A stretch of DNA of 17,497 nucleotides, taken from a virus (taxonomy: Duplodnaviria; Heunggongvirae; Uroviricota; Caudoviricetes). This document shows positions 1-17,497 of the stretch, piece by piece. The notes under the pieces were generated by a model that had not been told where the DNA came from, did no database searches, and worked only from the letters and a program-made list of their open reading frames with translations. Position 1 is the first letter of the stretch. Each line of letters begins with the position of its first letter. The stretch lies in IMG/VR virus record IMGVR_UViG_2681813135_000005, one strand, 5' to 3'. The position numbers and the translations under genes are program-made.

Positions 1-1284
1 TTACTTCTTCGCCTCTGCAACCACTTTACTACCCACGCCGCGGTTATTGTATTCCCACATGCGGTTGTAGTTAGTGTCATTCAGATTGCGCTGTATTTCG
101 TCGTTATCATCTACGCTGCCGGTATTACCCGCAAACGGACGATTAGAGATCACCGCATCGGCCCACGGTTTAGCCGTGTTAAAACCTTCGTTGATGGCGC
201 TATCACGGATCACCACCTGACCGTTGGTATTGGCATCAACATCCAGCGAGCGGCCCAGTTGCGCCACACCATCACCGAAAGCATTGAAACGGCTGTTTAC
301 GGCGAGGAAACCGTAGTAAATGTTGGACAGCGTAGCCGGTGCAAACACATACGCTTCTTGCTGAGTACGTGAGTTCACCACGCGGAATTCGGTGTTATCG
401 AACACCACTGCGCCGCGACCAGAAACGATATCCACATCCCCTTCAATGTAGCTGTTGGTCACCAGCGTACGCGGCTGACGATTCGTTTCCAGACGGTTCT
501 GCACACCGCTGTTGGTGACAAAGAAGGTGTTCTGACGACCGAGAATGTTAACGTTGTTAATCTGTACCTGGTCACCATCAGTACGCAGTGCCACCGCCGG
601 ATGGTTACCTGCATCTACGCTATCGCCCAGCGTGTTTTCGATGGTCAGATTTTGCAGTTGCAGGCCATTGTTTTGTGACCAGAAGACCGCAGAGCAGAGA
701 ACACCGATACTGTCGCTGCGTTTGCTCTGGCAGCTATCGTACATATACCACGCTGGTTTACCTGGCATATATTTGCCGCGCGGGTTGACGTCGTGACGCC
801 AGTCGGCAGGGCTCATGCCACCATCAAGGGAAAGCCCAATCTTCACATCAATCGGTTTTTCACCTGTACCGTACAGAGTAATTCCACCCGGAGCGGCAGG
901 GACATATACCGTTCCCTGATACTCACCAGGCATCACGGCAATATACTGGCGCTTGTTGGTACGCTTGATAATTGCCGCATCTACCGCCGCCTGAATCGTG
1001 GTATGCGTTACACCTTGAGTGCCCGCCGGGCCGACAACAAAGTCAGGTTGCGCAGGCAGGGTAATCGGGGAAGGATTCCACGCTGCAGCACCTGGTGTCA
1101 GGGATGCAAAATAGTGTTGAGCATCGAAATTCTGCGCTTCTTTTGCCGACAGAATCGGGCGAGAAGAGGTACCAGGCGCGGTTTGATCAGAAGGACGTTG
1201 ATCGGGCGGGGTTGAGCTACAGGCGGTCAGCGTCACGCCAAAAGCCAATGCCAGCGCCAGACGGGAAACTGAAAATGTGTTCAC
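1..1284 (-). CDS. ybhC: Lipoprotein YbhC (pectinesterase-like acyl-CoA thioesterase), host gene bordering attB-lambda
   Basis: Complete 427-aa ORF (ATG at 1284, TAA at 3..1). N-terminus has a signal peptide with lipobox LTAC. Sequence recognised from memory as E. coli YbhC, the gene next to the lambda attachment site. Confidence 0.85.
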   Translation of the reverse strand: MNTFSVSRLALALAFGVTLTACSSTPPDQRPSDQTAPGTSSRPILSAKEAQNFDAQHYFASLTPGAAAWNPSPITLPAQPDFVVGPAGTQGVTHTTIQAAVDAAIIKRTNKRQYIAVMPGEYQGTVYVPAAPGGITLYGTGEKPIDVKIGLSLDGGMSPADWRHDVNPRGKYMPGKPAWYMYDSCQSKRSDSIGVLCSAVFWSQNNGLQLQNLTIENTLGDSVDAGNHPAVALRTDGDQVQINNVNILGRQNTFFVTNSGVQNRLETNRQPRTLVTNSYIEGDVDIVSGRGAVVFDNTEFRVVNSRTQQEAYVFAPATLSNIYYGFLAVNSRFNAFGDGVAQLGRSLDVDANTNGQVVIRDSAINEGFNTAKPWADAVISNRPFAGNTGSVDDNDEIQRNLNDTNYNRMWEYNNRGVGSKVVAEAKK

Positions 1285-1325
1285 AGGTTGCTCCGGGCTA
1301 TGAAATAGAAAAATGAATCCGTTGA

Positions 1326-1418
1326 AGCCTGCTTTTTTATACTAAGTTGGCATTATAAAAAAGCATTGCTTATCAATTTGTTGCAACGAACAGGTCACTA
1401 TCAGTCAAAATAAAATCA
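1326..1418. other. attL: Lambda attL: 15-bp core GCTTTTTTATACTAA (1331-1345) plus P' arm with Int arm-type and IHF sites
   Basis: Exact lambda core sequence read in the window. The following GTTGGCATTATAAAAAAGCATTGCTTATCAATTTGTTGCAACGAACAGGTCACTATCAGTCAAAATAAAATCATTATTTG is the well-known lambda P' arm, the same sequence used in Gateway attL/attP sites. Confidence 0.9.
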
Positions 1419-2489
1419 TTATTTGATTTCAATTTTGTCCCACTCCCTGCCTCTGTCATCACGATACTGTGATGCCATGGTGTCCGACTTATGCCCGAGA
1501 AGATGTTGAGCAAACTTATCGCTTATCTGCTTCTCATAGAGTCTTGCAGACAAACTGCGCAACTCGTGAAAGGTAGGCGGATCCCCTTCGAAGGAAAGAC
1601 CTGATGCTTTTCGTGCGCGCATAAAATACCTTGATACTGTGCCGGATGAAAGCGGTTCGCGACGAGTAGATGCAATTATGGTTTCTCCGCCAAGAATCTC
1701 TTTGCATTTATCAAGTGTTTCCTTCATTGATATCCCGAGAGCATCAACATGCAATGTTGTTGGGATGGCAATTTTTACGCCTGTTTTGCTTTGCTCGACA
1801 TAAAGATATCCATCTACGATATCAGACCACTTCATTTCGCATAAATCACCAACTCGTTGCCCGGTAACAACAGCCAGTTCCATTGCAAGTCTGAGCCAAC
1901 ATGGTGATGATTCTGCTGCTTGATAAATTTTCAGGTATTCGTCAGCCGTAAGTCTTGATCTCCTTACCTCTGATTTTGCTGCGCGAGTGGCAGCGACAGG
2001 GTTTGTTGTTATATGGCCTTCAGCTATTGCCTCTCGGAATGCATCGCTCAGTGTTGATCTGATTAACTTGGCTGACGCCGCCTTGCCCTCGTCTATGTAT
2101 CCATTGAGCATTGCCGCAATTTCTTTTGTGGTGATGTCTTCAAGTGGAGCATCAGGCAGACCCCTCCTTATTGCTTTAATTTTGCTCATGTAATTTATGA
2201 GTGTCTTCTGCTTGATTCCTCTGCTGGCCAGGATTTTTTCGTAGCGATCAAGCCATGAATGTAACGTAACGGAATTATCACTGTTGATTCTCGCTGTCAG
2301 AGGCTTGTGTTTGTGTCCTGAAAATAACTCAATGTTGGCCTGTATAGCTTCAGTGATTGCGATTCGCCTGTCTCGGCCTAATCCAAACTCTTTACCCGTC
2401 CTTGGGTCCCTGTAGCAGTAATATCCATTGTTTCTTATATAAAGGTTAGGGGGTAAATCCCGGCGCTCATGACTTCGCCTTCTTCCCAT
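1419..2489 (-). CDS. int: Lambda-type integrase (tyrosine recombinase)
   Basis: 356-aa ORF beginning MGRRRSHERRDLPPNLYIRNNGYYCYRDPRTGKEFGLGRDRRIAITEAIQANIELF, recognised as phage lambda Int. Lies directly beside the P' arm of attL and overlaps xis as in lambda. Confidence 0.95.
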   Translation of the reverse strand: MGRRRSHERRDLPPNLYIRNNGYYCYRDPRTGKEFGLGRDRRIAITEAIQANIELFSGHKHKPLTARINSDNSVTLHSWLDRYEKILASRGIKQKTLINYMSKIKAIRRGLPDAPLEDITTKEIAAMLNGYIDEGKAASAKLIRSTLSDAFREAIAEGHITTNPVAATRAAKSEVRRSRLTADEYLKIYQAAESSPCWLRLAMELAVVTGQRVGDLCEMKWSDIVDGYLYVEQSKTGVKIAIPTTLHVDALGISMKETLDKCKEILGGETIIASTRREPLSSGTVSRYFMRARKASGLSFEGDPPTFHELRSLSARLYEKQISDKFAQHLLGHKSDTMASQYRDDRGREWDKIEIK

Positions 2490-2685
2490 TTCTGATCCTC
2501 TTCAAAAGGCTACCTGTTACTGGTCGATTTAAGTCAACCTTTACCGCTGATTCGTGGAACAGATATTCTCTTCCATCCTTAACCGGAGGAGGGAATATCC
2601 TGCATTCGCGCACCCATCGACGAACTGTTTCAAGGCTTCTTGGGCGTCGCTGGCGAGCGTTCCACTCCTGAAGTGTCAAGTACAT
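2467..2685 (-). CDS. xis: Lambda-type excisionase
   Basis: 72-aa ORF MYLTLQEWNARQRRPRSLETVRRWVRECRIFPPPVKDGREYLFHESAVKVDLNRPV..., matching lambda Xis in sequence and length. 3' end overlaps the int start. Confidence 0.9.
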   Translation of the reverse strand: MYLTLQEWNARQRRPRSLETVRRWVRECRIFPPPVKDGREYLFHESAVKVDLNRPVTGSLLKRIRNGKKAKS

Positions 2686-8038: not shown

Positions 8039-8728
8039 TTAACCATGCTTCCTGTACGTCTGCGGCATGCTTCCAATGACCTTACCGAATATGAACACCC
8101 GGTTCATCTCGTCTTTCTCGATCGGGTCCCACGGCGAGTAGCTCTTGTTATCAGAGATAACCAGCAGCTTATCCTTCATCATTTGAAGACGTTTTACATG
8201 GGCAGTGTCGTCGTACAGAAACGCATAGATGCCATCACCGTCGAAAGATTTAACAGTGATATCAACGAACAGCAGGTCACCTGGTTCGATCGTCCCTGAC
8301 ATGCTGTCACCTCGCACGTTAATGATGCGGATATTTTCCGCCTTCCTGCCATCGAACATGTGACGAGCATCGTCAAACGAGTACTCAACCGAGCGTAGAA
8401 CTTCTACAAACTCACGGTTGATTACACCTGGCCCGGCACTGACTTCTATATCAAGAACGTCAATTTTGAAGTATTTGGAATGGCTGACAGTTGATTGTAT
8501 TGGTTGCACTGTACTGTCTGACATATTTCCAACGCCAGAAGATAACCATTCTGCGCGCACACCCAAAGCGTTCGCGATCTCCACGATTTTAGTTGTTTGG
8601 TTAGCTTTCCCTGTTTCGATTTTCTGAATAGCAGCCTGGCTAACCCCGACCAAATCCCCAAGCGCCTTTTGTGTAAGGCCTCGCGCTAATCTGGCTTCTT
8701 TAAGTCTTTCTGAGAGTGTTGTTTTCAT
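8039..8728 (-). CDS. CI-type prophage repressor (N-terminal HTH, C-terminal LexA/S24-like autoproteolysis domain)
   Basis: 229-aa ORF. N-terminal HTH (LTQKALGDLVGVSQAAIQKIETGK); C-terminal S24-like region with NVRGDSMSGTIEPGDLLFVD and a downstream lysine (HVKRL). No SD before the ATG, consistent with a leaderless pRM-type transcript. Not lambda cI. Confidence 0.85.
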   Translation of the reverse strand: MKTTLSERLKEARLARGLTQKALGDLVGVSQAAIQKIETGKANQTTKIVEIANALGVRAEWLSSGVGNMSDSTVQPIQSTVSHSKYFKIDVLDIEVSAGPGVINREFVEVLRSVEYSFDDARHMFDGRKAENIRIINVRGDSMSGTIEPGDLLFVDITVKSFDGDGIYAFLYDDTAHVKRLQMMKDKLLVISDNKSYSPWDPIEKDEMNRVFIFGKVIGSMPQTYRKHG

Positions 8729-8832: not shown

Positions 8833-9063
8833 ATGAACCCAGCAATCAAAACAGCGATCAATATCGTTGGTTCACAAAAGAAACTAGGCGATGCCTGCGA
8901 AGTTTCACAGCAGGCCGTCTATAAGTGGCTTCACAACAAAGCAAAGGTATCCCCTGAACATGTCGGCAGCATTGTTACGGCTACTGGTGGAGTTGTGAAG
9001 GCATACCAGATTCGCCCGGATCTTCCGAAGTTGTTTCCACACACCGAAAAGAACGCAGCTTAA
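8833..9063 (+). CDS. Cro-like HTH regulator (YdaS/Cro family)
   Basis: 76-aa ORF with SD GGAGG. HTH-like segment KKLGDACEVSQQAVYKWLHNK. Divergent from the repressor gene, in the cro position. Confidence 0.65.
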   Translation: MNPAIKTAINIVGSQKKLGDACEVSQQAVYKWLHNKAKVSPEHVGSIVTATGGVVKAYQIRPDLPKLFPHTEKNAA

Positions 9064-9132
9064 ATTTCCATTTCACGCTCTTTAACAATAAGCAATCAAC
9101 TTAACAGTCAATTCAAACTAAAGGAGTCAATT

Positions 9133-9672
9133 ATGCAACCACTTACATACCAACAGACTAGCGGATTTATTCCGACTGCGGTGATAAATCGTTCTCAAAC
9201 AAAACAAGCTCCAGGCCACGAAAAAATCCGTGATGCCGTCCGCGCCTGGTCGGCTGTAGATAATCAGGATGTCGTTGCCGCACTCATTGTGAATGAGTAT
9301 CGGGAGCAGGGCGACGGCACCATCGATTTCCCTGATGATGTCAGCCGTGCACGCCAGAAGCTGTTCCGCTTCCTCGATAACAAATTCGATTCTGAAAAAT
9401 ACCGAAATAACGTGCGTGAACTGACCCCGGCAATTCTGGCGGTACTACCGCTGGAATATCGCGGTTACCTGGTTGAGCAGGATAGCTTCATGACTCGGTT
9501 GGCTGAAATGGAAAAGGAACTCAGTGAGGCAAAACAGGCTGTCATTCTCAACGCACCACGCCACCAGAAACTGAAGGAAATGAGTGAAGGTATTGTGTCG
9601 ATGTTTCGTGTGGACCCGGATCTGGCTGGTCCATTAATGGCGATGGTGACCACCATGCTGGGGGCAATATGA
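9133..9672 (+). CDS. YdaT-like protein in the cII position
   Basis: 179-aa ORF with SD AAGGAG. Contains LTPAILAVLPLEYRGYL, which resembles what I recall of the Rac-prophage YdaT family. Sits between cro-like and O. Confidence 0.5.
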   Translation: MQPLTYQQTSGFIPTAVINRSQTKQAPGHEKIRDAVRAWSAVDNQDVVAALIVNEYREQGDGTIDFPDDVSRARQKLFRFLDNKFDSEKYRNNVRELTPAILAVLPLEYRGYLVEQDSFMTRLAEMEKELSEAKQAVILNAPRHQKLKEMSEGIVSMFRVDPDLAGPLMAMVTTMLGAI

Positions 9673-9758
9673 CAGGTTCAGAAATGGCGAAAGTCGGTCT
9701 GCGGGAACAGAACCGACTTTCAGGTGCAAATCGTAACACACTCATTGCGGGAGGAATT

Positions 9759-10688
9759 ATGGCAAACACTGCTGAGATATTCAATTTTCCAGTGCCGGAT
9801 GCGGCACAAAAGGAGCCGCGCGTGGCAGATCTCGATGATGGTTATACGCGCATTGCAAATGAGTTGCTGGAAGCTGTGATGCTGGCCGGATTAACACAGC
9901 ACCAGCTTCTGGTCTTCCTGGCTGTCATGCGCAAAACATATGGCTTTAATAAAAAACTGGATTGGGTGAGCAACGAGCAACTTTCCGAGTTGACCGGGAT
10001 ATTGCCGCACAAGTGTTCTGCTGCAAAAAGTGTTCTGGTAAAGCGTGGGATTTTTATTCAGAGCGGGCGGAATATCGGCATTAATAATGTGGTCAGTGAA
10101 TGGTCAACATTACCCGAATCAGGTAAGAAAAATAAAGTTTACCTGAAAGAGGTAAATTTACCTGAATCAGGTAAGAAAAGTTTACCCAAATCAGGTAAAG
10201 GCACTTACCCGAATCAGGTAAACACAAAATACAAACTAACAAAAGACAATATAAAACCTTTTTCGTCCGAGAATTCTGGCGAATCCTCTGACCAACCAGA
10301 AAACGATCTTCCTGTGGAGAAACCAGATGCTGCAATTCAGAGCGGCAGCAGGTGGGGGACAGCAGAAGACCTGACCGCCGCAGAGTGGATGTTTGACATG
10401 GTGAAGACCATCGCGCCATCAGCCAGAAAACCGAATTTTGCAGGGTGGGCTAACGATATCCGCCTGATGCGTGAACGTGACGGCCGTAACCACCGCGACA
10501 TGTGCGTGCTGTTCCGCTGGGCATGCCAGGACAACTTCTGGTCCGGTAACGTGCTAAGTCCGGCCAAACTCCGCGACAAGTGGACCCAACTCGAAATCAA
10601 CCGTAACAAGCAACAGGCTGGCGTGATAGCCGGAAAATCAAAACTCGACCTGACAAACACTGACTGGATTTACGGGGTGGATTTATGA
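9759..10688 (+). CDS. O: Replication initiator O (divergent N-terminal origin-binding domain, lambda-like C-terminal domain)
   Basis: Start at the ATG at 9759 (SD GGAGG at 9749-9753), giving MANTAEIFNFPVPDAAQKEPRVADLDDGYTRIANELLEAVMLAGLTQHQLLVFLAVMRKTYGFNKK..., which aligns with the lambda O N-terminus. The C-terminal half (...SSENSGESSDQPENDL...WMFDMVKTIAPSARKPNFAGWANDIRLMRERDG...) is lambda-like. Iterons lie inside the gene. The track's 9669 start is an unlikely extension. Confidence 0.9.
   Translation: MANTAEIFNFPVPDAAQKEPRVADLDDGYTRIANELLEAVMLAGLTQHQLLVFLAVMRKTYGFNKKLDWVSNEQLSELTGILPHKCSAAKSVLVKRGIFIQSGRNIGINNVVSEWSTLPESGKKNKVYLKEVNLPESGKKSLPKSGKGTYPNQVNTKYKLTKDNIKPFSSENSGESSDQPENDLPVEKPDAAIQSGSRWGTAEDLTAAEWMFDMVKTIAPSARKPNFAGWANDIRLMRERDGRNHRDMCVLFRWACQDNFWSGNVLSPAKLRDKWTQLEINRNKQQAGVIAGKSKLDLTNTDWIYGVDL
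10110..10262. repeat. Phage replication origin: five iterons plus AT-rich region inside O
   Basis: Iterons TTACCCGAATCAGGTAAG (10110), TTTACCTGAAAGAGGTAAA (10138), TTTACCTGAATCAGGTAAG (10157), TTTACCCAAATCAGGTAAA (10181), CTTACCCGAATCAGGTAAA (10204), each an inverted repeat TTACC...GGTAA. Followed by AT-rich CACAAAATACAAACTAACAAAAGACAATATAAAACC. Confidence 0.8.
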
Positions 10689-11386
10689 AAAACATCGCCG
10701 CACAGATGGTTAACTTTGACCGTGAGCAGATGCGCCGGATCGCCAACAACATGCCGGAACAGTACGACGAAAAGCCGCAGGTACAACAGGTAGCGCAGAT
10801 CATCAATGGTGTGTTCAGCCAGTTACTGGCAACTTTCCCGGCGAGCCTGGCTAACCGGGACCAGAACGAACTGAACGAAATCCGCCGCCAGTGGGTTCTG
10901 GCTTTCCGGGAAAACGGGATCACCACGATGGAACAGGTTAACGCAGGAATGCGCGTAGCCCGTCGGCAGAATCGACCATTCCTGCCATCACCCGGGCAGT
11001 TTGTTGCCTGGTGCCGGGAAGAAGCATCCGTTACCGCCGGGCTGCCAAACGCCAGCGAGCTGGTTGATATGGTTTACGAGTATTGCCGGAAACGTGGCCT
11101 GTATCCAGATGCAGAGTCTTATCCGTGGAAATCAAACGCGCACTACTGGCTGGTTACCAACCTGTATCAGAACATGCGGGCCAATGCGCTGACTGATGCG
11201 GAATTACGGCGCAAGGCTGCCGATGAACTGGCCTGTATGACAGCGCGAATTAACCGTGGTGAGGCGATACCTGAACCAGTAAAACAACTTCCTGTCATGG
11301 GCGGGAGACCGCTTAATCGTGTTCAGGCTCTGGCGAAGATCGCAGAAATCAAAGCGAAGTTTGGGCTGAAAGGAGCAAGTGTATGA
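10685..11386 (+). CDS. P: Replication protein P (DnaB helicase loader)
   Basis: 233-aa ORF MKNIAAQMVNFDREQMRRIANNMPEQYDEKPQVQQVAQIINGVFSQLLATFPASLANRDQNE..., recognised as lambda P. ATGA overlap with O. Confidence 0.95.
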   Translation: MKNIAAQMVNFDREQMRRIANNMPEQYDEKPQVQQVAQIINGVFSQLLATFPASLANRDQNELNEIRRQWVLAFRENGITTMEQVNAGMRVARRQNRPFLPSPGQFVAWCREEASVTAGLPNASELVDMVYEYCRKRGLYPDAESYPWKSNAHYWLVTNLYQNMRANALTDAELRRKAADELACMTARINRGEAIPEPVKQLPVMGGRPLNRVQALAKIAEIKAKFGLKGASV

Positions 11387-12040: not shown

Positions 12041-13459
12041 TTAGAAAATAATGTTTGCTATATCCGAGATAGCATTTAAAGAACCTCTGTGGTCACTTCC
12101 TGTTTTAGGTAAAATATAGGAATATCGAGGGTCTTCATTATATGTTAACTTCCAGTGTTTTCCATCGCTTGACGCACTGAAACCTAAGTCCTTTAAATTT
12201 CTTTGTGTTGCGCTATCCATGCTTCTGTAACCTGTTAAAGTCCTTTTAAGTAATTGGCGGCGACTCTCGGTTTCTTTATTGTATTCATTATTGGCAATTA
12301 GGGATGATAAGATATGGTAGCTTCTACCAAATTCATTTTTATTTTTTATGGCAGTTTTTAGTGCGTCAATAATTATATTTTTGATTTCTCCATCAAAAAA
12401 ATCAGTCTCTTCACCAGCATTAAGCACAATGCTTCCTTGGGCTGAAGCTTGTGATTGAAGAGTGCGTACTCTGTGCTCTAAAGAGGAGATCTTATGCTTA
12501 AGATCTTCTATTTGGTCATCTTTCGCAACATTATCGGCTTCGTAAAGCGCCATCAGTTCGCGTGTGTATTCTCCTCTTTCTTTGAGTGAGTTAATAGAGT
12601 CTTTCGTTTTTCTGGTTTGTATCTCACTCCATCCACTATCTGAGACAGGAGCCATTGTAGTCGTAGCTCTTACAACATCATCAAATAACTCATCTTCAAA
12701 TTCTTTTGCGGTTTTCTCACCACGGCGATAAAAACTGATATTTTGACCCCGTGGCCAATAGATACCAACAGCACCAGCATAGGCATTTTTAGCATTTGTC
12801 TCATTTTTTAGCTTAATAGAAAATAGTCTATTGCTAGGCTCAATTAATACATGTGCTAATCCGCATACCTTTCTTGCAAGGCGTTCTGGGATGATATTGT
12901 GAGCATGTTCATTAAAAAAATACTTGGAGCTAACGTATATTATTGGTAGTCTGTTGTCAGTTTCACCATTTATAACTTTAGCTGCTATATTTAAATGTTC
13001 ATCAGTATCATCTAAGGAATGAGGTTCGACTGACACCTTGAAAATATCATCAAGACCACCAGAAAATTTATCAATCAATCTCATAACAACTAATGGTTTC
13101 TTAGGTTGCGGGGCTAGATAAGCTGCATCTTGGCTTACAACGCTAGATTCCACCTGAATCCACATGGTATCAGTTTTGAGATTTTTATTAATTGAAATAT
13201 CTGTTACCCATTTGTGTGGCTCAGATATTTTCGAATACCTAAAACAGCCTAAACTAGTATCTTTGTTTTTATAAGTTATTATATCAATTCTTTCATTTTT
13301 AGACTCTATGAAGTACTCCTCGCTTTTATAATCACATACTAATTGTGCTGGAATAAAAGTTGTATGTGGTGAGTCGTTTACCCAAGAAAAACATTCATTA
13401 AAGATCTCAGCTAGAGATGTGGAGTTTGAAACATAAAAACCAGTTGAGAAATATTTCAT
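12041..13459 (-). CDS. Large hypothetical protein (472 aa) of unrecognised family: cargo gene at the ren/ninB junction, candidate phage-defence or abortive-infection factor
   Basis: Uninterrupted 472-codon ORF with SD AAGGAA 5 nt before the ATG at 13459. Markedly AT-rich compared with flanking ren and ninB-like genes and transcribed against them. Central predicted coiled-coil (DDQIEDLKHKISSLEHRVRTLQSQASAQ) between an N-terminal region of about 290 aa and a C-terminal region of about 130 aa. No family recognised by eye. Confidence 0.8.
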   Translation of the reverse strand: MKYFSTGFYVSNSTSLAEIFNECFSWVNDSPHTTFIPAQLVCDYKSEEYFIESKNERIDIITYKNKDTSLGCFRYSKISEPHKWVTDISINKNLKTDTMWIQVESSVVSQDAAYLAPQPKKPLVVMRLIDKFSGGLDDIFKVSVEPHSLDDTDEHLNIAAKVINGETDNRLPIIYVSSKYFFNEHAHNIIPERLARKVCGLAHVLIEPSNRLFSIKLKNETNAKNAYAGAVGIYWPRGQNISFYRRGEKTAKEFEDELFDDVVRATTTMAPVSDSGWSEIQTRKTKDSINSLKERGEYTRELMALYEADNVAKDDQIEDLKHKISSLEHRVRTLQSQASAQGSIVLNAGEETDFFDGEIKNIIIDALKTAIKNKNEFGRSYHILSSLIANNEYNKETESRRQLLKRTLTGYRSMDSATQRNLKDLGFSASSDGKHWKLTYNEDPRYSYILPKTGSDHRGSLNAISDIANIIF

Positions 13460-13494: not shown

Positions 13495-13734
13495 GGCTAT
13501 GATAATTGTTACCCTCCTTTGGATCTAGTGTTCATTTGACATAAGAACCTATTGATTCATCATAATCAACTCGCCATAATCATGTCATCGGAGCCTGAAC
13601 AACTCCGGTGACTTCTGCGCTTTGAGGGGACTCAAAGTGCAAACGACAATCAGAACACCTTTCAACCAGTCACAGATGCAGAAATGCACCTGCGATATCT
13701 TGCATCCAACGTTTGACCTCTGCGGAGGTGAAGC

Positions 13735-14190
13735 GTGAACCTCCCACAAGATGGTATCAAATTGCATCGCGGTAACTTCACCGCTATCGGTCGGCAGATC
13801 CAGCCTTATCTGGAGGACGGCAAATGCTTTCGCATGGTGCTTAAACCGTGGCGCGAGAGACGCAGTCTTTCCCAGAATGCACTCAGCCACATGTGGTACA
13901 GCGAAATCAGTGAATACCTCATCAGCAAGGGTAAAACGTTCGCCACTCCAGCTTGGGTAAAAGATGCTCTCAAACACACATATCTCGGTTATGAAACCAA
14001 AGACCTGGTTGATGTCGTAACCGGTGATATCACCACTATCCAGTCGTTACGCCATACCTCCGATCTTGATACCGGAGAGATGTATGTCTTCCTGTGTAAG
14101 GTTGAAGCCTGGGCGGTGAATATTGGCTGCCACCTGACTATTCCGCAGAGCTGCGAGTTCCAGCTGCTCCGCGACAAGCAGGAGGCGTAA
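13735..14190 (+). CDS. ybcN: NinB/YbcN-like protein (nin-region recombination/DNA-binding family)
   Basis: 151-aa ORF from GTG at 13735 with SD GGAGG. Sequence recalled as DLP12 YbcN-like; [17 protein letters not shown] parallels lambda NinB RSLDQNRKLW. Confidence 0.7.
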
Positions 14191-14360
14191 TGGCTACACC
14201 GCTTATTCGTGTCATGAACGGACACATCTACAGAGTACCAGATCGTCGTAAGCGTAAACCGGAGCTGAAGCCTTCCGAAATACCAACACTGCTCGGATAT
14301 ACCGCCAGCCTGGTTGATAAAAAATGGTTGCGACTGGCAGCAAGGAGGAATCATGGCTGA
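14190..14360 (+). CDS. ninE: NinE-like small protein (56 aa)
   Basis: [64 protein letters not shown] overlap with the upstream gene, SD GGAGG, and ATGGCTGA overlap with the downstream gene. Below the ORF-track cut-off. Confidence 0.7.
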   Translation: MATPLIRVMNGHIYRVPDRRKRKPELKPSEIPTLLGYTASLVDKKWLRLAARRNHG

Positions 14361-14643
14361 TTTGAGAAAAGCAGCGCGTAGTCGGGAATGCCAGGTAAGA
14401 ATCCCTGGCGTATGTAATGGCAACCCTGAAACGTCTGTACTGGCACATATCCGGCTGACTGGATTGTGCGGCACCGGTACCAAACCGCCAGACCTGATTG
14501 CCACCATTGCATGTTCTGCCTGCCACGACGAAATCGACCGCCGCACACATTTTGTCGATGCTGCATATGCAAAAGAATGCGCGCTGGAAGGTATGGCGAG
14601 AACACAGGTTATCTGGCTGAAAGAGGGGGTTATTAAGGCGTGA
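14353..14643 (+). CDS. ybcO: YbcO-like Cys-rich protein (DUF1364-type, putative zinc-binding nuclease)
   Basis: Start at the ATG at 14353 preceded by AGGAGG, giving [64 protein letters not shown].... Conserved Cys/His pattern. Confidence 0.7.
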
Positions 14644-15002
14644 ATACCTACAGCATCACATTACCCTGGCCTCCGAGCAATAATCGCTATTACCGCCATA
14701 ATCGCGGGCGCACGCACGTCAGCGCAGAGGGGCAGGCATACCGCGATAACGTCGCCCGAATCATTAAAAACGCAATGCTGGATATCGGCCTGGCTATGCC
14801 TGTGAAAATCCGCATTGAGTGCCACATGCCGGATCGCCGTCGCCGTGACCTGGATAATCTGCAAAAAGCCGCTTTTGACGCACTCACTAAAGCAGGTTTC
14901 TGGCTGGATGATGCTCAGGTCGTTGATTACCGCGTTGTGAAGATGCCTGTTACCAAAGGTGGGAGGCTGGAACTGACCATCACCGAAATGGGGAATGAAT
15001 GA
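14640..15002 (+). CDS. rusA: RusA Holliday-junction resolvase
   Basis: 120-aa [107 protein letters not shown]..., recognised as E. coli/lambdoid RusA. Confidence 0.9.
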
Positions 15003-15139
15003 TGTTTGAGTTTTATATGGCAGAACGTCTTCGCCACCGCTGGGGGCGTCTGCGCTTATATCGTTTCCCCGGTTCTGTTTTGACCGATTACCGAATACTG
15101 AAGAATTACGCCAAAACCCTGACAGGAGCAGGAGTATGA
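14999..15139 (+). CDS. ylcG: YlcG-like small protein (46 aa)
   Basis: [49 protein letters not shown] overlapping the rusA stop (ATGA). Resembles DLP12 YlcG as recalled. Below the ORF-track cut-off. Confidence 0.6.
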
Positions 15140-15272: not shown

Positions 15273-15282
15273 ANNNNNNNNN
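15273..15282. other. Assembly gap (10 N) joining prophage sequence to an unrelated chromosomal locus
   Basis: Literal run of 10 n characters. Phage genes on the left, host REP/terminator/yidB on the right. Confidence 0.95.
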
Positions 15283-15318
15283 NAATCTTGCAATGTATTG
15301 AATTTTCATGATTTTGTA

Positions 15319-15395: not shown

Positions 15396-15469
15396 TCTGC
15401 AATCCGCAATTATCATCCCGCAAATCTATACTTTTTGGGTCAACACGTAACGCTTTACAGGTGATTATC

Positions 15470-15868
15470 ATGGGGCTTTTTGATGAAGTTGTCGGTGCCT
15501 TTCTGAAAGGCGATGCGGGGAAATATCAGGCTATTTTAAGTTGGGTTGAGGAGCAGGGCGGCATTCAGGTGCTGCTGGAAAAACTGCAAAGTGGCGGCTT
15601 AGGGGCCATTCTCTCAACCTGGCTGAGTAATCAACAGGGCAATCAATCGGTTAGTGGCGAGCAACTGGAATCGGCGCTCGGCACAAATGCGGTGTCCGAT
15701 CTTGGACAAAAACTTGGCGTGGATACCAGTACAGCTTCCAGTTTACTGGCAGAACAATTGCCGAAGATTATTGATGCGCTCTCACCGCAAGGTGAAGTGT
15801 CTCCACAAGCCAATAACGATCTGCTTTCCGCAGGCATGGAACTGCTGAAAGGGAAACTCTTCCGCTAA
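15470..15868 (+). CDS. yidB: YidB (DUF937 family protein)
   Basis: 132-aa product MGLFDEVVGAFLKGDAGKYQAILSWVEEQGGIQVLLEKLQSGGLGAILSTWLSN... from the ATG at 15470, recognised as E. coli YidB. The track's GTG at 15461 adds three residues. Confidence 0.85.
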   Translation: MGLFDEVVGAFLKGDAGKYQAILSWVEEQGGIQVLLEKLQSGGLGAILSTWLSNQQGNQSVSGEQLESALGTNAVSDLGQKLGVDTSTASSLLAEQLPKIIDALSPQGEVSPQANNDLLSAGMELLKGKLFR

Positions 15869-15982: not shown

Positions 15983-16795
15983 ATGGCTATCAAACTCATT
16001 GCTATCGATATGGATGGCACCCTTCTGCTACCCGATCACACCATTTCACCCGCCGTTAAAAATGCGATTGCCGCAGCTCGCGCCCGTGGCGTGAATGTCG
16101 TGCTAACGACGGGTCGCCCTTATGCAGGTGTTCACAATTACCTGAAAGAGCTGCATATGGAACTGCCGGGCGACTACTGCATTACTTATAACGGCGCGCT
16201 GGTACAGAAGGCCGCTGATGGTAGCACCGTGGCGCAAACCGCTCTCAGCTATGACGACTACCGTTTCCTGGAAAAACTCTCTCGCGAAGTCGGTTCTCAT
16301 TTCCACGCCCTGGACCGCACCACGCTGTACACCGCCAACCGTGATATCAGCTACTACACGGTGCATGAATCCTTCGTTGCCACAATTCCGCTGGTGTTCT
16401 GCGAAGCGGAGAAAATGGACCCCAATACCCAGTTCCTGAAAGTGATGATGATTGATGAACCCGCCATCCTCGACCAGGCTATCGCGCGTATTCCGCAGGA
16501 AGTGAAAGAGAAATATACCGTGCTGAAAAGTGCGCCGTACTTCCTCGAAATCCTCGATAAACGCGTTAACAAAGGTACGGGGGTGAAATCACTGGCCGAC
16601 GTGTTAGGTATTAAACCGGAAGAAATCATGGCGATTGGCGATCAGGAAAACGATATCGCAATGATTGAATATGCAGGCGTCGGTGTGGCGATGGATAACG
16701 CTATTCCTTCAGTGAAAGAAGTGGCGAACTTTGTCACCAAATCTAACCTTGAAGATGGCGTGGCGTTTGCTATTGAGAAGTATGTGCTGAATTAA
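15983..16795 (+). CDS. yidA: HAD-superfamily (Cof-type) sugar phosphatase YidA
   Basis: 270-aa ORF MAIKLIAIDMDGTLLLPDHTISPAVKNAIAAARARGVNVVLTTGRPYAGVHNYL... with HAD motif I DMDGTLL and a C-terminal GDQENDIAM motif. Recognised as E. coli YidA. Confidence 0.9.
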   Translation: MAIKLIAIDMDGTLLLPDHTISPAVKNAIAAARARGVNVVLTTGRPYAGVHNYLKELHMELPGDYCITYNGALVQKAADGSTVAQTALSYDDYRFLEKLSREVGSHFHALDRTTLYTANRDISYYTVHESFVATIPLVFCEAEKMDPNTQFLKVMMIDEPAILDQAIARIPQEVKEKYTVLKSAPYFLEILDKRVNKGTGVKSLADVLGIKPEEIMAIGDQENDIAMIEYAGVGVAMDNAIPSVKEVANFVTKSNLEDGVAFAIEKYVLN

Positions 16796-16840: not shown

Positions 16841-17497
16841 TTATTGGTTTACTGCATATACAACCAGAAATTGCAGCGGTGCAGTAATGATGTCCAGCGT
16901 AACAGTCACTGGCAGTAATGCTGCGGAAACACCATCCGGAATGCCTCTGGGTGAATAGTATTCATAAAATCGCACTTTAAATGGATGGTAGAACGCCATC
17001 ACCTTTGAGTAATCCATGTTTTTATTTTTCTCATGGATTGTGCCTTTTAGGTTTTCCAGTGACCTGGTACAGTGTTGAACACCACAGGCAAAACCATAAT
17101 GCGTTGCCAGTGCCTTTTCTTCTTCGTTATTCCAGTAGTAGTAAAGCGATATTGTGCCGGTAAATTTCTTTTTCCCCGCATTTAAAACAAATCTTGCGTC
17201 ATCGGCAACCTGAATATTGTGCCGGTTAAGTGCTGGATCATTGAGCATCTTAACGATGTCATCGGCACCATCAGTGATAAGGTAATCCAGCGATTCCCCT
17301 ACAAAAACATAGCCTTTTGTTCCATTACTATCTTTTGCCTGCGATAGCCCAGTGATGGTGTCTGACTGCGATTGATACTTTCCTGAACTACCCTTTGCGG
17401 TATGGGAAACCAGAGCATACGAGATACAGCCTGAAAGCATCAGCGCCAGTGGGAATAAACCGGCAGCCTTAAAAAATCCCTTAAAATTCAACTTCAT
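16841..17497 (-). CDS. yidX: Predicted lipoprotein YidX
   Basis: 218-aa ORF starting at the last base of the window (ATG 17497..17495), [24 protein letters not shown]... with lipobox. Gene order yidB-yidA-yidX matches the E. coli chromosome. Confidence 0.8.

What the first reader, a model, noticed from the sequence alone, without database searches (positions are those of the whole stretch)
10110..10262. Replication origin with five TTACC...GGTAA iterons inside O
Five 18-19 bp inverted-repeat iterons at 19-28 bp spacing, followed by an AT-rich tract, lie in the middle of the O gene. This is the lambdoid ori architecture, but the iteron sequence differs from lambda's, implying a different O-ori specificity.
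Basis: partly seen in the sequence, partly recalled or inferred. Interest (0 to 1): 0.5.

Follow-up and report, generated by a model that had tools for sequence, protein, structure and literature searches.

The report
Lambdoid prophage origin, non-lambda iterons
This is the replication origin of a lambda-like prophage, built exactly like phage lambda's origin inside the O gene but with different initiator-binding repeats; it is an ordinary and very common variant of a well-understood system.

Summary
Five 17-bp dyad-symmetric repeats (TTACC-N7-GGTAA) start at 10110, 10139, 10158, 10182 and 10205. An A-rich, 22% GC tract follows at 10222-10260. All of it lies inside a lambda-type O gene, directly after its origin-binding domain, and a lambda-type P gene follows.

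Repeats 2-5 align in register with lambda's four iterons (spacing 19/24/23 vs 20/24/23). Near-identity to lambda (about 95%) begins at the right edge of the AT tract.

The repeats are DNA signals, not a peptide repeat. They are read in two reading frames. Their arms are invariant in 12 diverged Enterobacterales loci (96/96 third-codon positions), while third positions of the adjacent domain are 48% identical.

The predicted recognition-helix motif tracks the iteron type: LPHKCSAAKS with TTACC, HHTH with TTAGC in HK97, PVKRCNEAK with TCCCT in lambda. A distinct O-ori specificity is therefore well supported in silico but untested.

This allele occurs in 2271 of 5426 complete E. coli genomes and in about 15 isolated phages. 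The same binding-domain-plus-iteron cassette is joined to P-, DnaC/IstB- and Toprim-type partners in other genera.

Verdict: a new, or simply undescribed, member of a known kind. Interest is low. Whether it equals the classical phage 82 origin could not be checked.

The parts
9759..10688 (+). O gene (replication initiator). The probable true start is ATG 9759 (309 aa). Databases annotate the upstream ATG 9669 (339 aa).
   Evidence: Pfam Phage_rep_O, E = 8.6e-34. BLASTP vs lambda O gives 1e-143, and lambda Met1 aligns to the Met encoded at 9759. GGAGG at 9750-9754 lies 4 nt before ATG 9759.
9819..10103 (+). Coding region of the O N-terminal origin-binding domain (predicted winged helix). The predicted recognition helix PHKCSAAKSVLVK is encoded at about 10005-10043.
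   Evidence: Pfam match at aa 51-145 of the 339-aa ORF. The AF2 model has pLDDT 83-94 over residues 40-118, with H72-79, H83-95 and a beta hairpin at 99-108. The best PDB fold matches are CRP/FNR and MarR winged-helix domains, though weakly (E about 4e-3).
10110..10126 (+). Iteron 1, TTACCCGAATCAGGTAA. This is the extra upstream iteron with no lambda counterpart; it corresponds to a 10-aa insertion relative to lambda O.
10139..10155 (+). Iteron 2, TTACCTGAAAGAGGTAA. It aligns with lambda ITN1.
10158..10174 (+). Iteron 3, TTACCTGAATCAGGTAA. It has perfect 6-bp arms and aligns with lambda ITN2.
10182..10198 (+). Iteron 4, TTACCCAAATCAGGTAA. It aligns with lambda ITN3.
10205..10221 (+). Iteron 5, TTACCCGAATCAGGTAA. 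It aligns with lambda ITN4.
10222..10260 (+). A-rich AT tract, the presumed DNA-unwinding element: ACACAAAATACAAACTAACAAAAGACAATATAAAACCTT.
   Evidence: GC 22.5% and AT skew +0.68, the extreme of the O region. About 75% identical to lambda's AT-rich tract. 77-90% identical across 12 diverged loci. The motif ACACAAAAGACA..ACAAAAGA is shared with lambda, 933W, P22, HK97 and SEN34.
10262..10688 (+). O linker and C-terminal domain, lambda type (the P-interacting domain in lambda). The mosaic joint with lambda-like sequence starts here.
   Evidence: About 95% nucleotide identity to lambda from TTCGTC(C/A)GAGAATTC onward. About 97% amino-acid identity.
10685..11386 (+). P gene (helicase loader that recruits DnaB). 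Its start overlaps the O stop.
   Evidence: Pfam Phage_lambda_P, E = 9.5e-62.

Best explanation
The segment 10110-10260 is the bidirectional (theta) replication origin of a lambda-like prophage integrated at att-lambda. By analogy with lambda, the mechanism would run as follows. Dimers of the prophage's own O protein bind each 17-bp dyad-symmetric iteron through the N-terminal winged-helix domain, with the TTACC and GGTAA half-sites 12 bp apart centre to centre. The four or five bound dimers assemble into an O-some that bends and wraps the DNA. This destabilises the adjacent A-rich tract on supercoiled DNA that is being transcribed from pR. The lambda-type C-terminal domain of O then docks the P-DnaB complex. 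Host DnaK, DnaJ and GrpE release DnaB, and host primase and Pol III start synthesis. What differs from lambda is only the specificity pair, meaning the recognition helix and wing of O together with the iteron sequence. This O should fire this origin and not ori-lambda, and vice versa, while its P-interaction domain and P itself should be interchangeable with lambda's. Shown here: the anatomy, its register with lambda, DNA-level selection on the iterons, co-inheritance of binding domain and iterons, and co-variation of the recognition-helix motif with iteron type. Inferred from lambda biochemistry: binding, O-some formation, unwinding, P-DnaB recruitment and the specificity itself.
For: 1. Five iterons plus an AT tract lie at the stated coordinates, with none expected by chance.
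2. They sit inside an O gene with a Phage_rep_O domain, followed by a Phage_lambda_P gene.
3. Iterons 2-5 align column for column with lambda ITN1-4. Spacing is 19/24/23 vs 20/24/23, and the AT tract is about 75% identical.
4. Mosaic structure: the O N-terminal domain is about 45% identical to lambda's and the C-terminal domain about 97%. The joint falls at the right edge of the AT tract.
5. The repeats are read in two frames, as LPESGK/LPKSGK and as VYLKEVN/TYPNQVN, so the repeat is a property of the DNA.
6. In 12 loci from Klebsiella, Kluyvera, Enterobacter, Pseudocitrobacter, Pantoea, Xenorhabdus and Providencia, the O domain is 74-88% identical in protein and 48% identical at third codon positions. 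The iteron arms are 100% conserved, including 96/96 third-codon positions in iterons that were not used to find the loci. Fisher p is about 1e-29. Spacers are only 69% identical.
7. The 19/24/23 core spacing is fixed in all but two of the arrays found (Arsenophonus nasoniae and Ca. Sodalis differ), while extra upstream iterons vary the total from 4 to 9.
8. HKCSAAKS in the predicted recognition helix is invariant in all TTACC-type proteins. HK97 and SEN34 (TTAGC-N7-GCTAA) carry HHTH at that position, and lambda (TCCCT-N7-AGGGA) carries PVKRCNEAK.
9. The motif occurs nowhere else in the window, so it is not an operator.
Against: There is no experimental evidence for O binding or origin activity for this allele. 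No open-access paper contains these iteron sequences, and no solved structure of any O protein exists. The conservation statistic is inflated by shared ancestry and by finding the loci through one exact 17-mer. The fold matches to winged-helix proteins are weak (E about 4e-3; TM normalised to the query 0.36-0.50). The arms are the same pentamers as in P22 gene 18 iterons (TTTACC-RRATC-GGTAAA) and differ by one symmetric base pair from the HK97 type. Partial cross-recognition with those types therefore cannot be excluded. Whether the extra upstream iteron 1 is bound or needed is unknown. In Stx phages the extra iterons bind O weakly yet are required (PMC7466680).
Confidence: 0.9

Rival explanations
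1. The repeats are only the DNA shadow of a repetitive, flexible peptide linker (LPESGKK...) between the two O domains and have no function as DNA.
For: The region encodes a low-complexity, Lys/Ser/Pro/Gly-rich linker, and the array is variable in length among relatives.
Against: The same 17-mer is translated in two different frames into unrelated peptides. Synonymous positions in the arms are invariant (96/96), against 48% in the neighbouring domain. The spacing is conserved to the base pair and is not a multiple of 3.
Confidence: 0.02
2. The array is an O-binding site set, but in this element it acts mainly as a relic, or as a titration or incompatibility site, rather than as an active origin (a defective prophage).
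For: Many carriers are prophages of unknown viability. Some carry damaged versions: a 23-bp deletion with a frameshifted O in E. coli PEC240, and a 5'-truncated O in Sakai Sp8. The window shows only the early region up to a scaffold gap.
Against: In the window, O, P, cI, cro, int and xis are all intact ORFs. The identical module, at 98-99.9% identity, is present in plaque-forming isolated phages such as PhiR26_1, 4A7, Lambda_4C10, Perceval, 1W and 3W.
Confidence: 0.05
3. The origin is real but its specificity is not distinct. It is functionally the same group as an already characterised type, either the P22 gene 18 or HK97 O types or the classical phage 82 origin.
For: The arms are the same pentamers as in P22 iterons, and the HK97 type differs by one symmetric base pair. 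The arrangement 'type-specific O N-terminus with lambda-compatible O C-terminus and P' is what classical genetics reported for phage 82 (Furth & Yates 1978, as cited in PMC6022878; the details are from memory). The window's nin region is 95.4% identical to phage 82.
Against: P22 iterons have a 5-bp rather than a 7-bp centre, and the P22-type helix motif is different (APTKCSTAKN). HK97 and SEN34 carry HHTH instead of LPHKC. No phage 82 origin sequence was found in the phage collection searched; the one phage 82 record retrieved (X92588) covers only the nin region. Mosaicism means that nin-region identity says nothing about O.
Confidence: 0.35

Closest known systems
ori-lambda with the O and P proteins of phage lambda
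   Same: The iterons lie inside O directly after the origin-binding domain. Each iteron has 5+7+5 dyad geometry. The spacing register matches (19/24/23 vs 20/24/23). The AT-rich tract is A-rich and about 75% identical. The O C-terminal domain is about 97% identical, and the P gene is lambda-type.
   Different: The iteron sequence differs (TTACCYGAATCAGGTAA vs ATCCCTCAAAACGAGGGA). The O N-terminal domain is about 45% identical, with recognition-helix motif LPHKCSAAKS vs PVKRCNEAK. There is one extra upstream iteron, seen as a 10-aa insertion.
Origins of Stx phages 933W and P27 (six lambda-type iterons)
   Same: A lambda-type origin expanded by extra upstream iterons, which lengthen the O protein (PMC7466680).
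   Different: The Stx iterons are of the lambda sequence type and are bound by lambda O (PMC7466680). Here the sequence type itself is different.
P22 gene 18 origin (gp18 with the DnaB-type helicase gp12)
   Same: Repeats lie inside the initiator gene. The half-site pentamers are the same (TTACC / GGTAA) and the centre is GAATC-like. The AT-rich tract ACACAAAAGACAATA..ACAAAAGACAATA is almost identical.
   Different: The half-sites are 2 bp closer together (5-bp centre). The helix motif is different (APTKCSTAKN). The C-terminal domain and the partner protein differ, the partner being a helicase instead of P.
HK97 / SEN34 O-type origins (TTAGC-N7-GCTAA)
   Same: The 5+7+5 geometry and the AT tract are the same. 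SEN34 also has a lambda-type C-terminus and P. The first 40 residues of SEN34 O are nearly identical to those of this O.
   Different: One symmetric base pair per half-site differs (TTAGC vs TTACC). The recognition-helix motif is HHTH(C/V) rather than LPHKC.
phi80 gp15 origin
   Same: Four annotated gp15-binding repeats lie inside gene 15, followed by an AT-rich tract and the shared TCGTCCGAGAATTCTG flank.
   Different: The repeats are TTCCCGAAAACGGGAA (5+6+5) at 20/21/21 spacing, and the partner is gp14.

Membership tests
Lambdoid O-type replication origin (ori-lambda architecture) | A tandem array of at least 4 iterons of about 17-19 bp, each with internal dyad symmetry | tested here: met
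   There are five TTACC-N7-GGTAA repeats, with 0 expected by chance.
Lambdoid O-type replication origin (ori-lambda architecture) | The array lies inside the initiator gene, immediately downstream of the region coding the N-terminal origin-binding domain | tested here: met
   The Phage_rep_O match ends at nt 10103 and the first iteron starts at 10110. This is the same position as in lambda.
Lambdoid O-type replication origin (ori-lambda architecture) | A strand-asymmetric AT-rich tract of about 40 bp directly to the right of the last iteron | tested here: met
   Positions 10222-10260 have GC 22.5% and AT skew +0.68 and are about 75% identical to lambda's tract.
Lambdoid O-type replication origin (ori-lambda architecture) | A two-domain initiator (N-terminal DNA-binding domain, C-terminal partner-recruiting domain) followed by a helicase loader or helicase gene | tested here: met
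   Phage_rep_O plus a lambda-type C-terminus, followed by a Phage_lambda_P gene. The N-terminal domain is predicted to be a winged helix.
Lambdoid O-type replication origin (ori-lambda architecture) | The iterons are under selection as DNA, independently of the protein they encode | tested here: met
   They are read in two frames. 96/96 arm third-codon positions are conserved, against 48% in the flanking domain. Spacers are 69% identical.
Lambdoid O-type replication origin (ori-lambda architecture) | The initiator binds the iterons, and replication depends on O, P and the iterons | not testable with these tools
   This needs EMSA or footprinting and a mini-replicon assay. No published data were found.
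rep-lambda specificity group (lambda, 434, 933W, P27) | Iteron consensus ATCCCTCAAAACGAGGGA, recognised by lambda O | tested here: not met
   The arms are TTACC/GGTAA instead of TCCCT/AGGGA, and the O N-terminal domain is about 45% identical.
P22 gene 18 specificity group | Iterons TTTACC-RRATC-GGTAAA (5-bp centre) with the gp18-type recognition-helix motif | tested here: not met
   The centre is 7 bp here, and the helix motif is LPHKCSAAKS rather than APTKCSTAKN.
HK97 / SEN34 O specificity group | Iterons TTAGC-N7-GCTAA with an HHTH helix motif | tested here: not met
   Position 4 of each half-site differs, and the helix motif differs.
Phage 82 origin (rep82) | Identity of the iterons and the O N-terminus with the published ori82 sequence | not testable with these tools
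   No phage 82 origin record was found in the phage collection searched; the one phage 82 record retrieved (X92588) covers only the nin region. The 1979-81 papers were not found in the paper library.

The most novel reading that the evidence does not exclude
The winged-helix domain, the TTACC iterons and the AT tract form a self-contained 'origin cassette' that moves as a unit across Enterobacterales. It is plugged onto at least four unrelated C-terminal recruiting domains, whose partners are P, DnaC/IstB-like or Toprim-type proteins. Its strength would be tuned by 48-bp (29+19) iteron duplications, giving 4 to 9 copies. Because this single specificity is present in about 42% of complete E. 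coli genomes, sometimes with several matching places per genome, one induced prophage's O could fire the origins of co-resident, even defective, prophages in trans. That would link prophage-prophage interactions and in-situ amplification of virulence or defence loci to shared origin type.
Probability: 0.3. Interest if true: 0.35.

Novelty: new member of a known kind. Interest (0 to 1): 0.15.

Why it matters
It mainly confirms textbook modularity: origin specificity resides in the O N-terminus together with its iterons, and partner specificity resides in the C-terminus. There are three practical uses. First, this origin type can now be annotated in thousands of E. coli, Klebsiella, Enterobacter and other prophages, where only 'replication protein' is currently annotated. 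Second, it provides a candidate orthogonal O/ori pair that should remain compatible with lambda P, which could be useful for lambda-dv-like plasmids. Third, the natural series lambda / HK97 / P22 / this type, with one-bp or 2-bp-spacing differences and matched helix motifs, is a neat system for mapping the recognition code of O proteins, for which no structure exists.

Tried and rejected
1. A sequence search of O against all PDB chains found nothing, even at E <= 1.
2. A full-text search for the five iteron strings found no paper. Four further literature searches, plus one on replication modules, returned only lambda, Stx and P22/L work and nothing on this type.
3. I tried to decide whether this is ori82. 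The one phage 82 record I retrieved from the phage collection (X92588) covers only the nin region. That region is 95.4% identical to the window, but mosaicism makes this uninformative for O.
4. The GTDB scan with the exact 17-mer returned 108 loci. Most are single hits in unrelated phyla. About 70 such hits are expected by chance for a 17-mer in 596 Gb on both strands, so they were discarded. Only arrays in Enterobacterales were kept.
5. I suspected that the prophage was truncated and fused to yidB-yidA-yidX. This turned out to be a 10-N scaffold joint at 15274-15283.
6. Phage D2 looked like a natural domain-swap experiment (window-type residues 1-81 plus a lambda recognition helix and lambda iterons). 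Its O is 1 nt out of frame and annotated as two CDS, so it was not used as evidence.
7. The homologous-protein search of the N-terminal domain returned mostly short partial proteins. It was used only to build an alignment for AF2 and to read the helix-motif and iteron-peptide classes.

Full report
**1. The observation**

Reading 9900-10500 and running the repeat finder show five direct repeats. Each has internal dyad symmetry:
- TTACCCGAATCAGGTAA at 10110
- TTACCTGAAAGAGGTAA at 10139
- TTACCTGAATCAGGTAA at 10158
- TTACCCAAATCAGGTAA at 10182
- TTACCCGAATCAGGTAA at 10205

Start-to-start spacing is 29/19/24/23 bp. The degenerate pattern TTACCYNAAWSAGGTAA (one mismatch allowed) hits only these five sites in the 17.5-kb window, with 0 expected in 200 shuffles. 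It is therefore neither chance nor an operator motif used elsewhere in the window. Immediately to the right, 10220-10259 has the lowest GC (22.5%) and the strongest A-over-T skew (+0.68) of the whole O region. The only slip is '19-28 bp', which should be 19-29 bp.

**2. Context**

The repeats lie in ORF 9669-10688. Residues 51-145 of that ORF match Pfam Phage_rep_O (E = 8.6e-34). The next ORF, 10685-11386, is Phage_lambda_P (E = 9.5e-62).

Against lambda O, the alignment starts at the Met encoded at 9759, which aligns with lambda Met1. That ATG is preceded by GGAGG at 9750-9754. The real protein is therefore probably 309 aa, while databases annotate 339 aa.

The N-terminal domain is about 45% identical to lambda's. 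From SSENSGESSDQ onward the proteins are about 97% identical.

The window is a prophage at att-lambda:
- ybhC at 1-1284
- attL core GCTTTTTTATACTAA at 1331-1345
- int, xis, exo, bet, gam
- cI at 8039-8728
- a YdaS-like cro and a YdaT-like 'cII'
- O, P, ren
- a nin region 95% identical to phage 82's

A run of 10 N at 15274-15283 is a scaffold joint. The yidB-yidA-yidX genes to its right are unrelated.

**3. Register with lambda**

A DNA alignment with the annotated lambda origin shows the following:
- Window iterons 2-5 fall column for column on lambda ITN1-4. Spacing is 19/24/23 vs 20/24/23.
- Iteron 1 is an extra upstream copy that accounts for a 10-residue insertion.
- The AT tract is about 75% identical.
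- From TTCGTC(C/A)GAGAATTC (about 10262) the two sequences are about 95% identical.

The mosaic joint thus sits exactly at the right edge of the AT tract. The origin-binding domain, the iterons and part of the AT tract are inherited together as the variable cassette.

**4. The repeats are DNA signals**

The five iterons occupy two reading frames. They are translated as LPESGK or LPKSGK (iterons 1, 3, 4) and as VYLKEVN or TYPNQVN (iterons 2, 5).

A scan of one genome per species (GTDB) with the exact 17-mer gave 108 loci. About 70 single hits are expected by chance, and the single hits in distant phyla were discarded. Arrays of the motif were found only in Enterobacterales:
- Pseudocitrobacter
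- Kluyvera
- Enterobacter (two loci)
- Klebsiella
- Pantoea (three loci)
- Xenorhabdus (two loci)
- Providencia
- Arsenophonus
- Sodalis

In all but two of them (Arsenophonus nasoniae and Ca. Sodalis differ) the last four iterons keep the 19/24/23 spacing and the same frames. The total number ranges from 4 to 9. Kluyvera has 9, through repeated 48-bp (29+19) units.

Compared with the window, 12 of these loci show:

| Region | Identity to window |
|---|---|
| O domain, protein | 74-88% |
| O domain, third codon positions | 48% |
| Iteron arms | 100% in 11 loci, 97% in one |
| Arm third-codon positions, three iterons per locus not used to define the array | 96/96 |
| Iteron centres | 86% |
| Spacers | 69% |
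| First 30 nt of AT tract | 84% |

Fisher p for arm third positions against domain third positions is about 1e-29. This figure is inflated by shared ancestry and by ascertainment through one exact 17-mer, but the contrast is unambiguous.

Natural deletions behave as expected for unequal exchange between iterons. One is a 23-bp loss that frameshifts O, in E. coli PEC240. The other is a 24-bp in-frame loss that leaves four iterons, in strain 2024CK-00188. The second resembles lambda's r-type ori deletions (PMC6022878).

**5. Specificity**

An AF2 model of O residues 1-118 has pLDDT 83-94 from residue 40 onward. It gives a winged-helix topology: helix 72-79, helix 83-95 (PHKCSAAKSVLVK) and a beta hairpin at 99-108. 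The best PDB fold matches are CRP/FNR and MarR winged-helix domains, though only weakly (E about 4e-3). No O protein has a solved structure detectable by sequence.

The motif at the start of the predicted recognition helix tracks the iteron type:

| Helix motif | Iteron type | Where |
|---|---|---|
| HKCSAAKS (invariant) | TTACC-N7-GGTAA | every TTACC-type protein |
| HHTH(C/V) | TTAGC-N7-GCTAA | HK97, SEN34 |
| PVKRCNEAK | TCCCT-N7-AGGGA | lambda |
| APTKCSTAKN | TTTACC-RRATC-GGTAAA | P22 type |

SEN34 O is nearly identical to this O over its first 40 residues. It also has the lambda-type C-terminus, but it diverges across the helix-turn-helix and has the other iterons.

The window type has the same 5+7+5 geometry as lambda and HK97. 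It differs from HK97 by one symmetric base pair per half-site. It differs from P22 by 2 bp in half-site spacing. A distinct O-ori specificity is therefore the best reading, although cross-recognition with the nearest types is untested.

**6. Modularity**

The same binding-domain-plus-iteron cassette is fused to different C-terminal domains, each followed by a different partner:
- Lambda-type C-terminus with P: window and Pantoea alvi.
- A second C-terminal type with an IstB/DnaC-like AAA+ protein: Klebsiella phage RCIP0034, Pseudocitrobacter, Kluyvera, Xenorhabdus.
- A third type with a Toprim protein: Providencia.
- A fourth type with a P-like protein: Arsenophonus.

This is the known lambdoid pattern. 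Specificity for ori lies in the N-terminus and specificity for the partner lies in the C-terminus (Furth & Yates 1978, cited in PMC6022878; general statement in PMC8022706).

**7. How common and how new**

The N-terminus-plus-iteron segment (9759-10300) is present at 80% coverage or more in 2271 of 5426 complete E. coli genomes. Carriers include ST131 and O104:H4; O157:H7 Sakai prophage Sp8 carries a 74%-coverage, 5'-truncated copy. About 15 isolated phages share the O gene at 97-99.9% nucleotide identity: PhiR26_1, Lambda_4C10, 4A7, Perceval, 1W, 3W, Turner and others. In those records the gene is called 'replication protein O' and no origin is annotated.

No accessible paper contains these iteron sequences. 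I could not consult the 1979-81 papers on the phi80 and 82 origins, and no phage 82 origin sequence was found in the collection searched. From memory only, phage 82 has a type-specific O N-terminus combined with a lambda-compatible C-terminus and P, and 'four or five' repeats. This allele may therefore be the classical rep82 type.

**8. Verdict**

The finding is real and correctly interpreted. It is a standard lambdoid origin of a specificity class different from lambda. It is very widespread and has not been explicitly described in the literature available to me. The mechanism is inferred by close analogy with lambda. Binding, unwinding and specificity remain to be shown experimentally. Interest is low.

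Noticed in passing
window 15274-15283: This is a run of 10 N, a scaffold joint. To the left is the lambdoid prophage, whose nin region ends just after rusA. To the right are the unrelated chromosomal genes yidB (15461-15868), yidA (15983-16795) and yidX (16841-17497, minus strand). No complete E. coli genome has this junction, so the apparent prophage truncation is an assembly artefact.
   Followed up: yes
window 1-2685: The prophage sits at att-lambda. ybhC is at 1-1284 (minus strand), the exact lambda att core GCTTTTTTATACTAA is at 1331-1345, and a 356-aa integrase (1419-2489) and xis (2467-2685) follow.
   Followed up: partly
window 12041-13459 (minus strand): A 472-aa ORF lies between ren and the nin region. 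It has no Pfam or NCBIfam match and only a weak PADLOC hit (HEC-07, E = 1e-9). In close relatives the same slot holds a DUF4041 gene annotated as PD-lambda-1. This suggests a variable defence or moron slot that here carries an uncharacterised gene.
   Followed up: partly
window 8833-9672: The immunity-right genes are Rac-like rather than lambda-like. The cro analogue matches YdaS_toxin (E = 6.6e-17). The 179-aa protein in the cII position matches YdaT_toxin (E = 4.3e-30), and its stop overlaps the database-annotated O start.
   Followed up: no
window 13564-15129: The nin region is 95.4% identical to phage 82 record X92588 (orf151 / ybcN, orf56 / ninE, orf96 / ybcO, rus, orf45).
   Followed up: partly
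L006 (phage D2, OM475427) 1001-2022: This is a hybrid O gene. The first 336 nt are window-type (98.8% identity) and the rest is 100% lambda, including the lambda iterons. The joint falls at about codon 82, the start of the predicted recognition helix. It is 1 nt out of frame and is annotated as two CDS, so it is either a sequencing error or a dead recombinant.
   Followed up: partly
L007 (E. coli PEC240), L008 (E. coli 2024CK-00188), L029 (Kluyvera sichuanensis): The iteron number varies by unequal exchange. A 23-bp loss gives a frameshifted O pseudogene. A 24-bp in-frame loss leaves four iterons. Nine iterons arise through repeated 48-bp (29+19) units.
   Followed up: partly
window 10090-10101 and 10283-10294: An imperfect 12-nt inverted repeat (TGGTCAGTGAAT / ATCCTCTGACCA, 83% complementary) brackets the whole iteron-plus-AT-tract segment. 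Its significance is unknown and it may be chance.
   Followed up: no
one search hit list (proteins P0001-P0120): Most database proteins matching the O N-terminal domain are partial, at 70-206 aa. Many appear to end within or near the iteron-encoded segment. This may reflect short-read assemblies breaking at the iteron array, or at the lambda-like C-terminal half shared between co-resident prophages.
   Followed up: no
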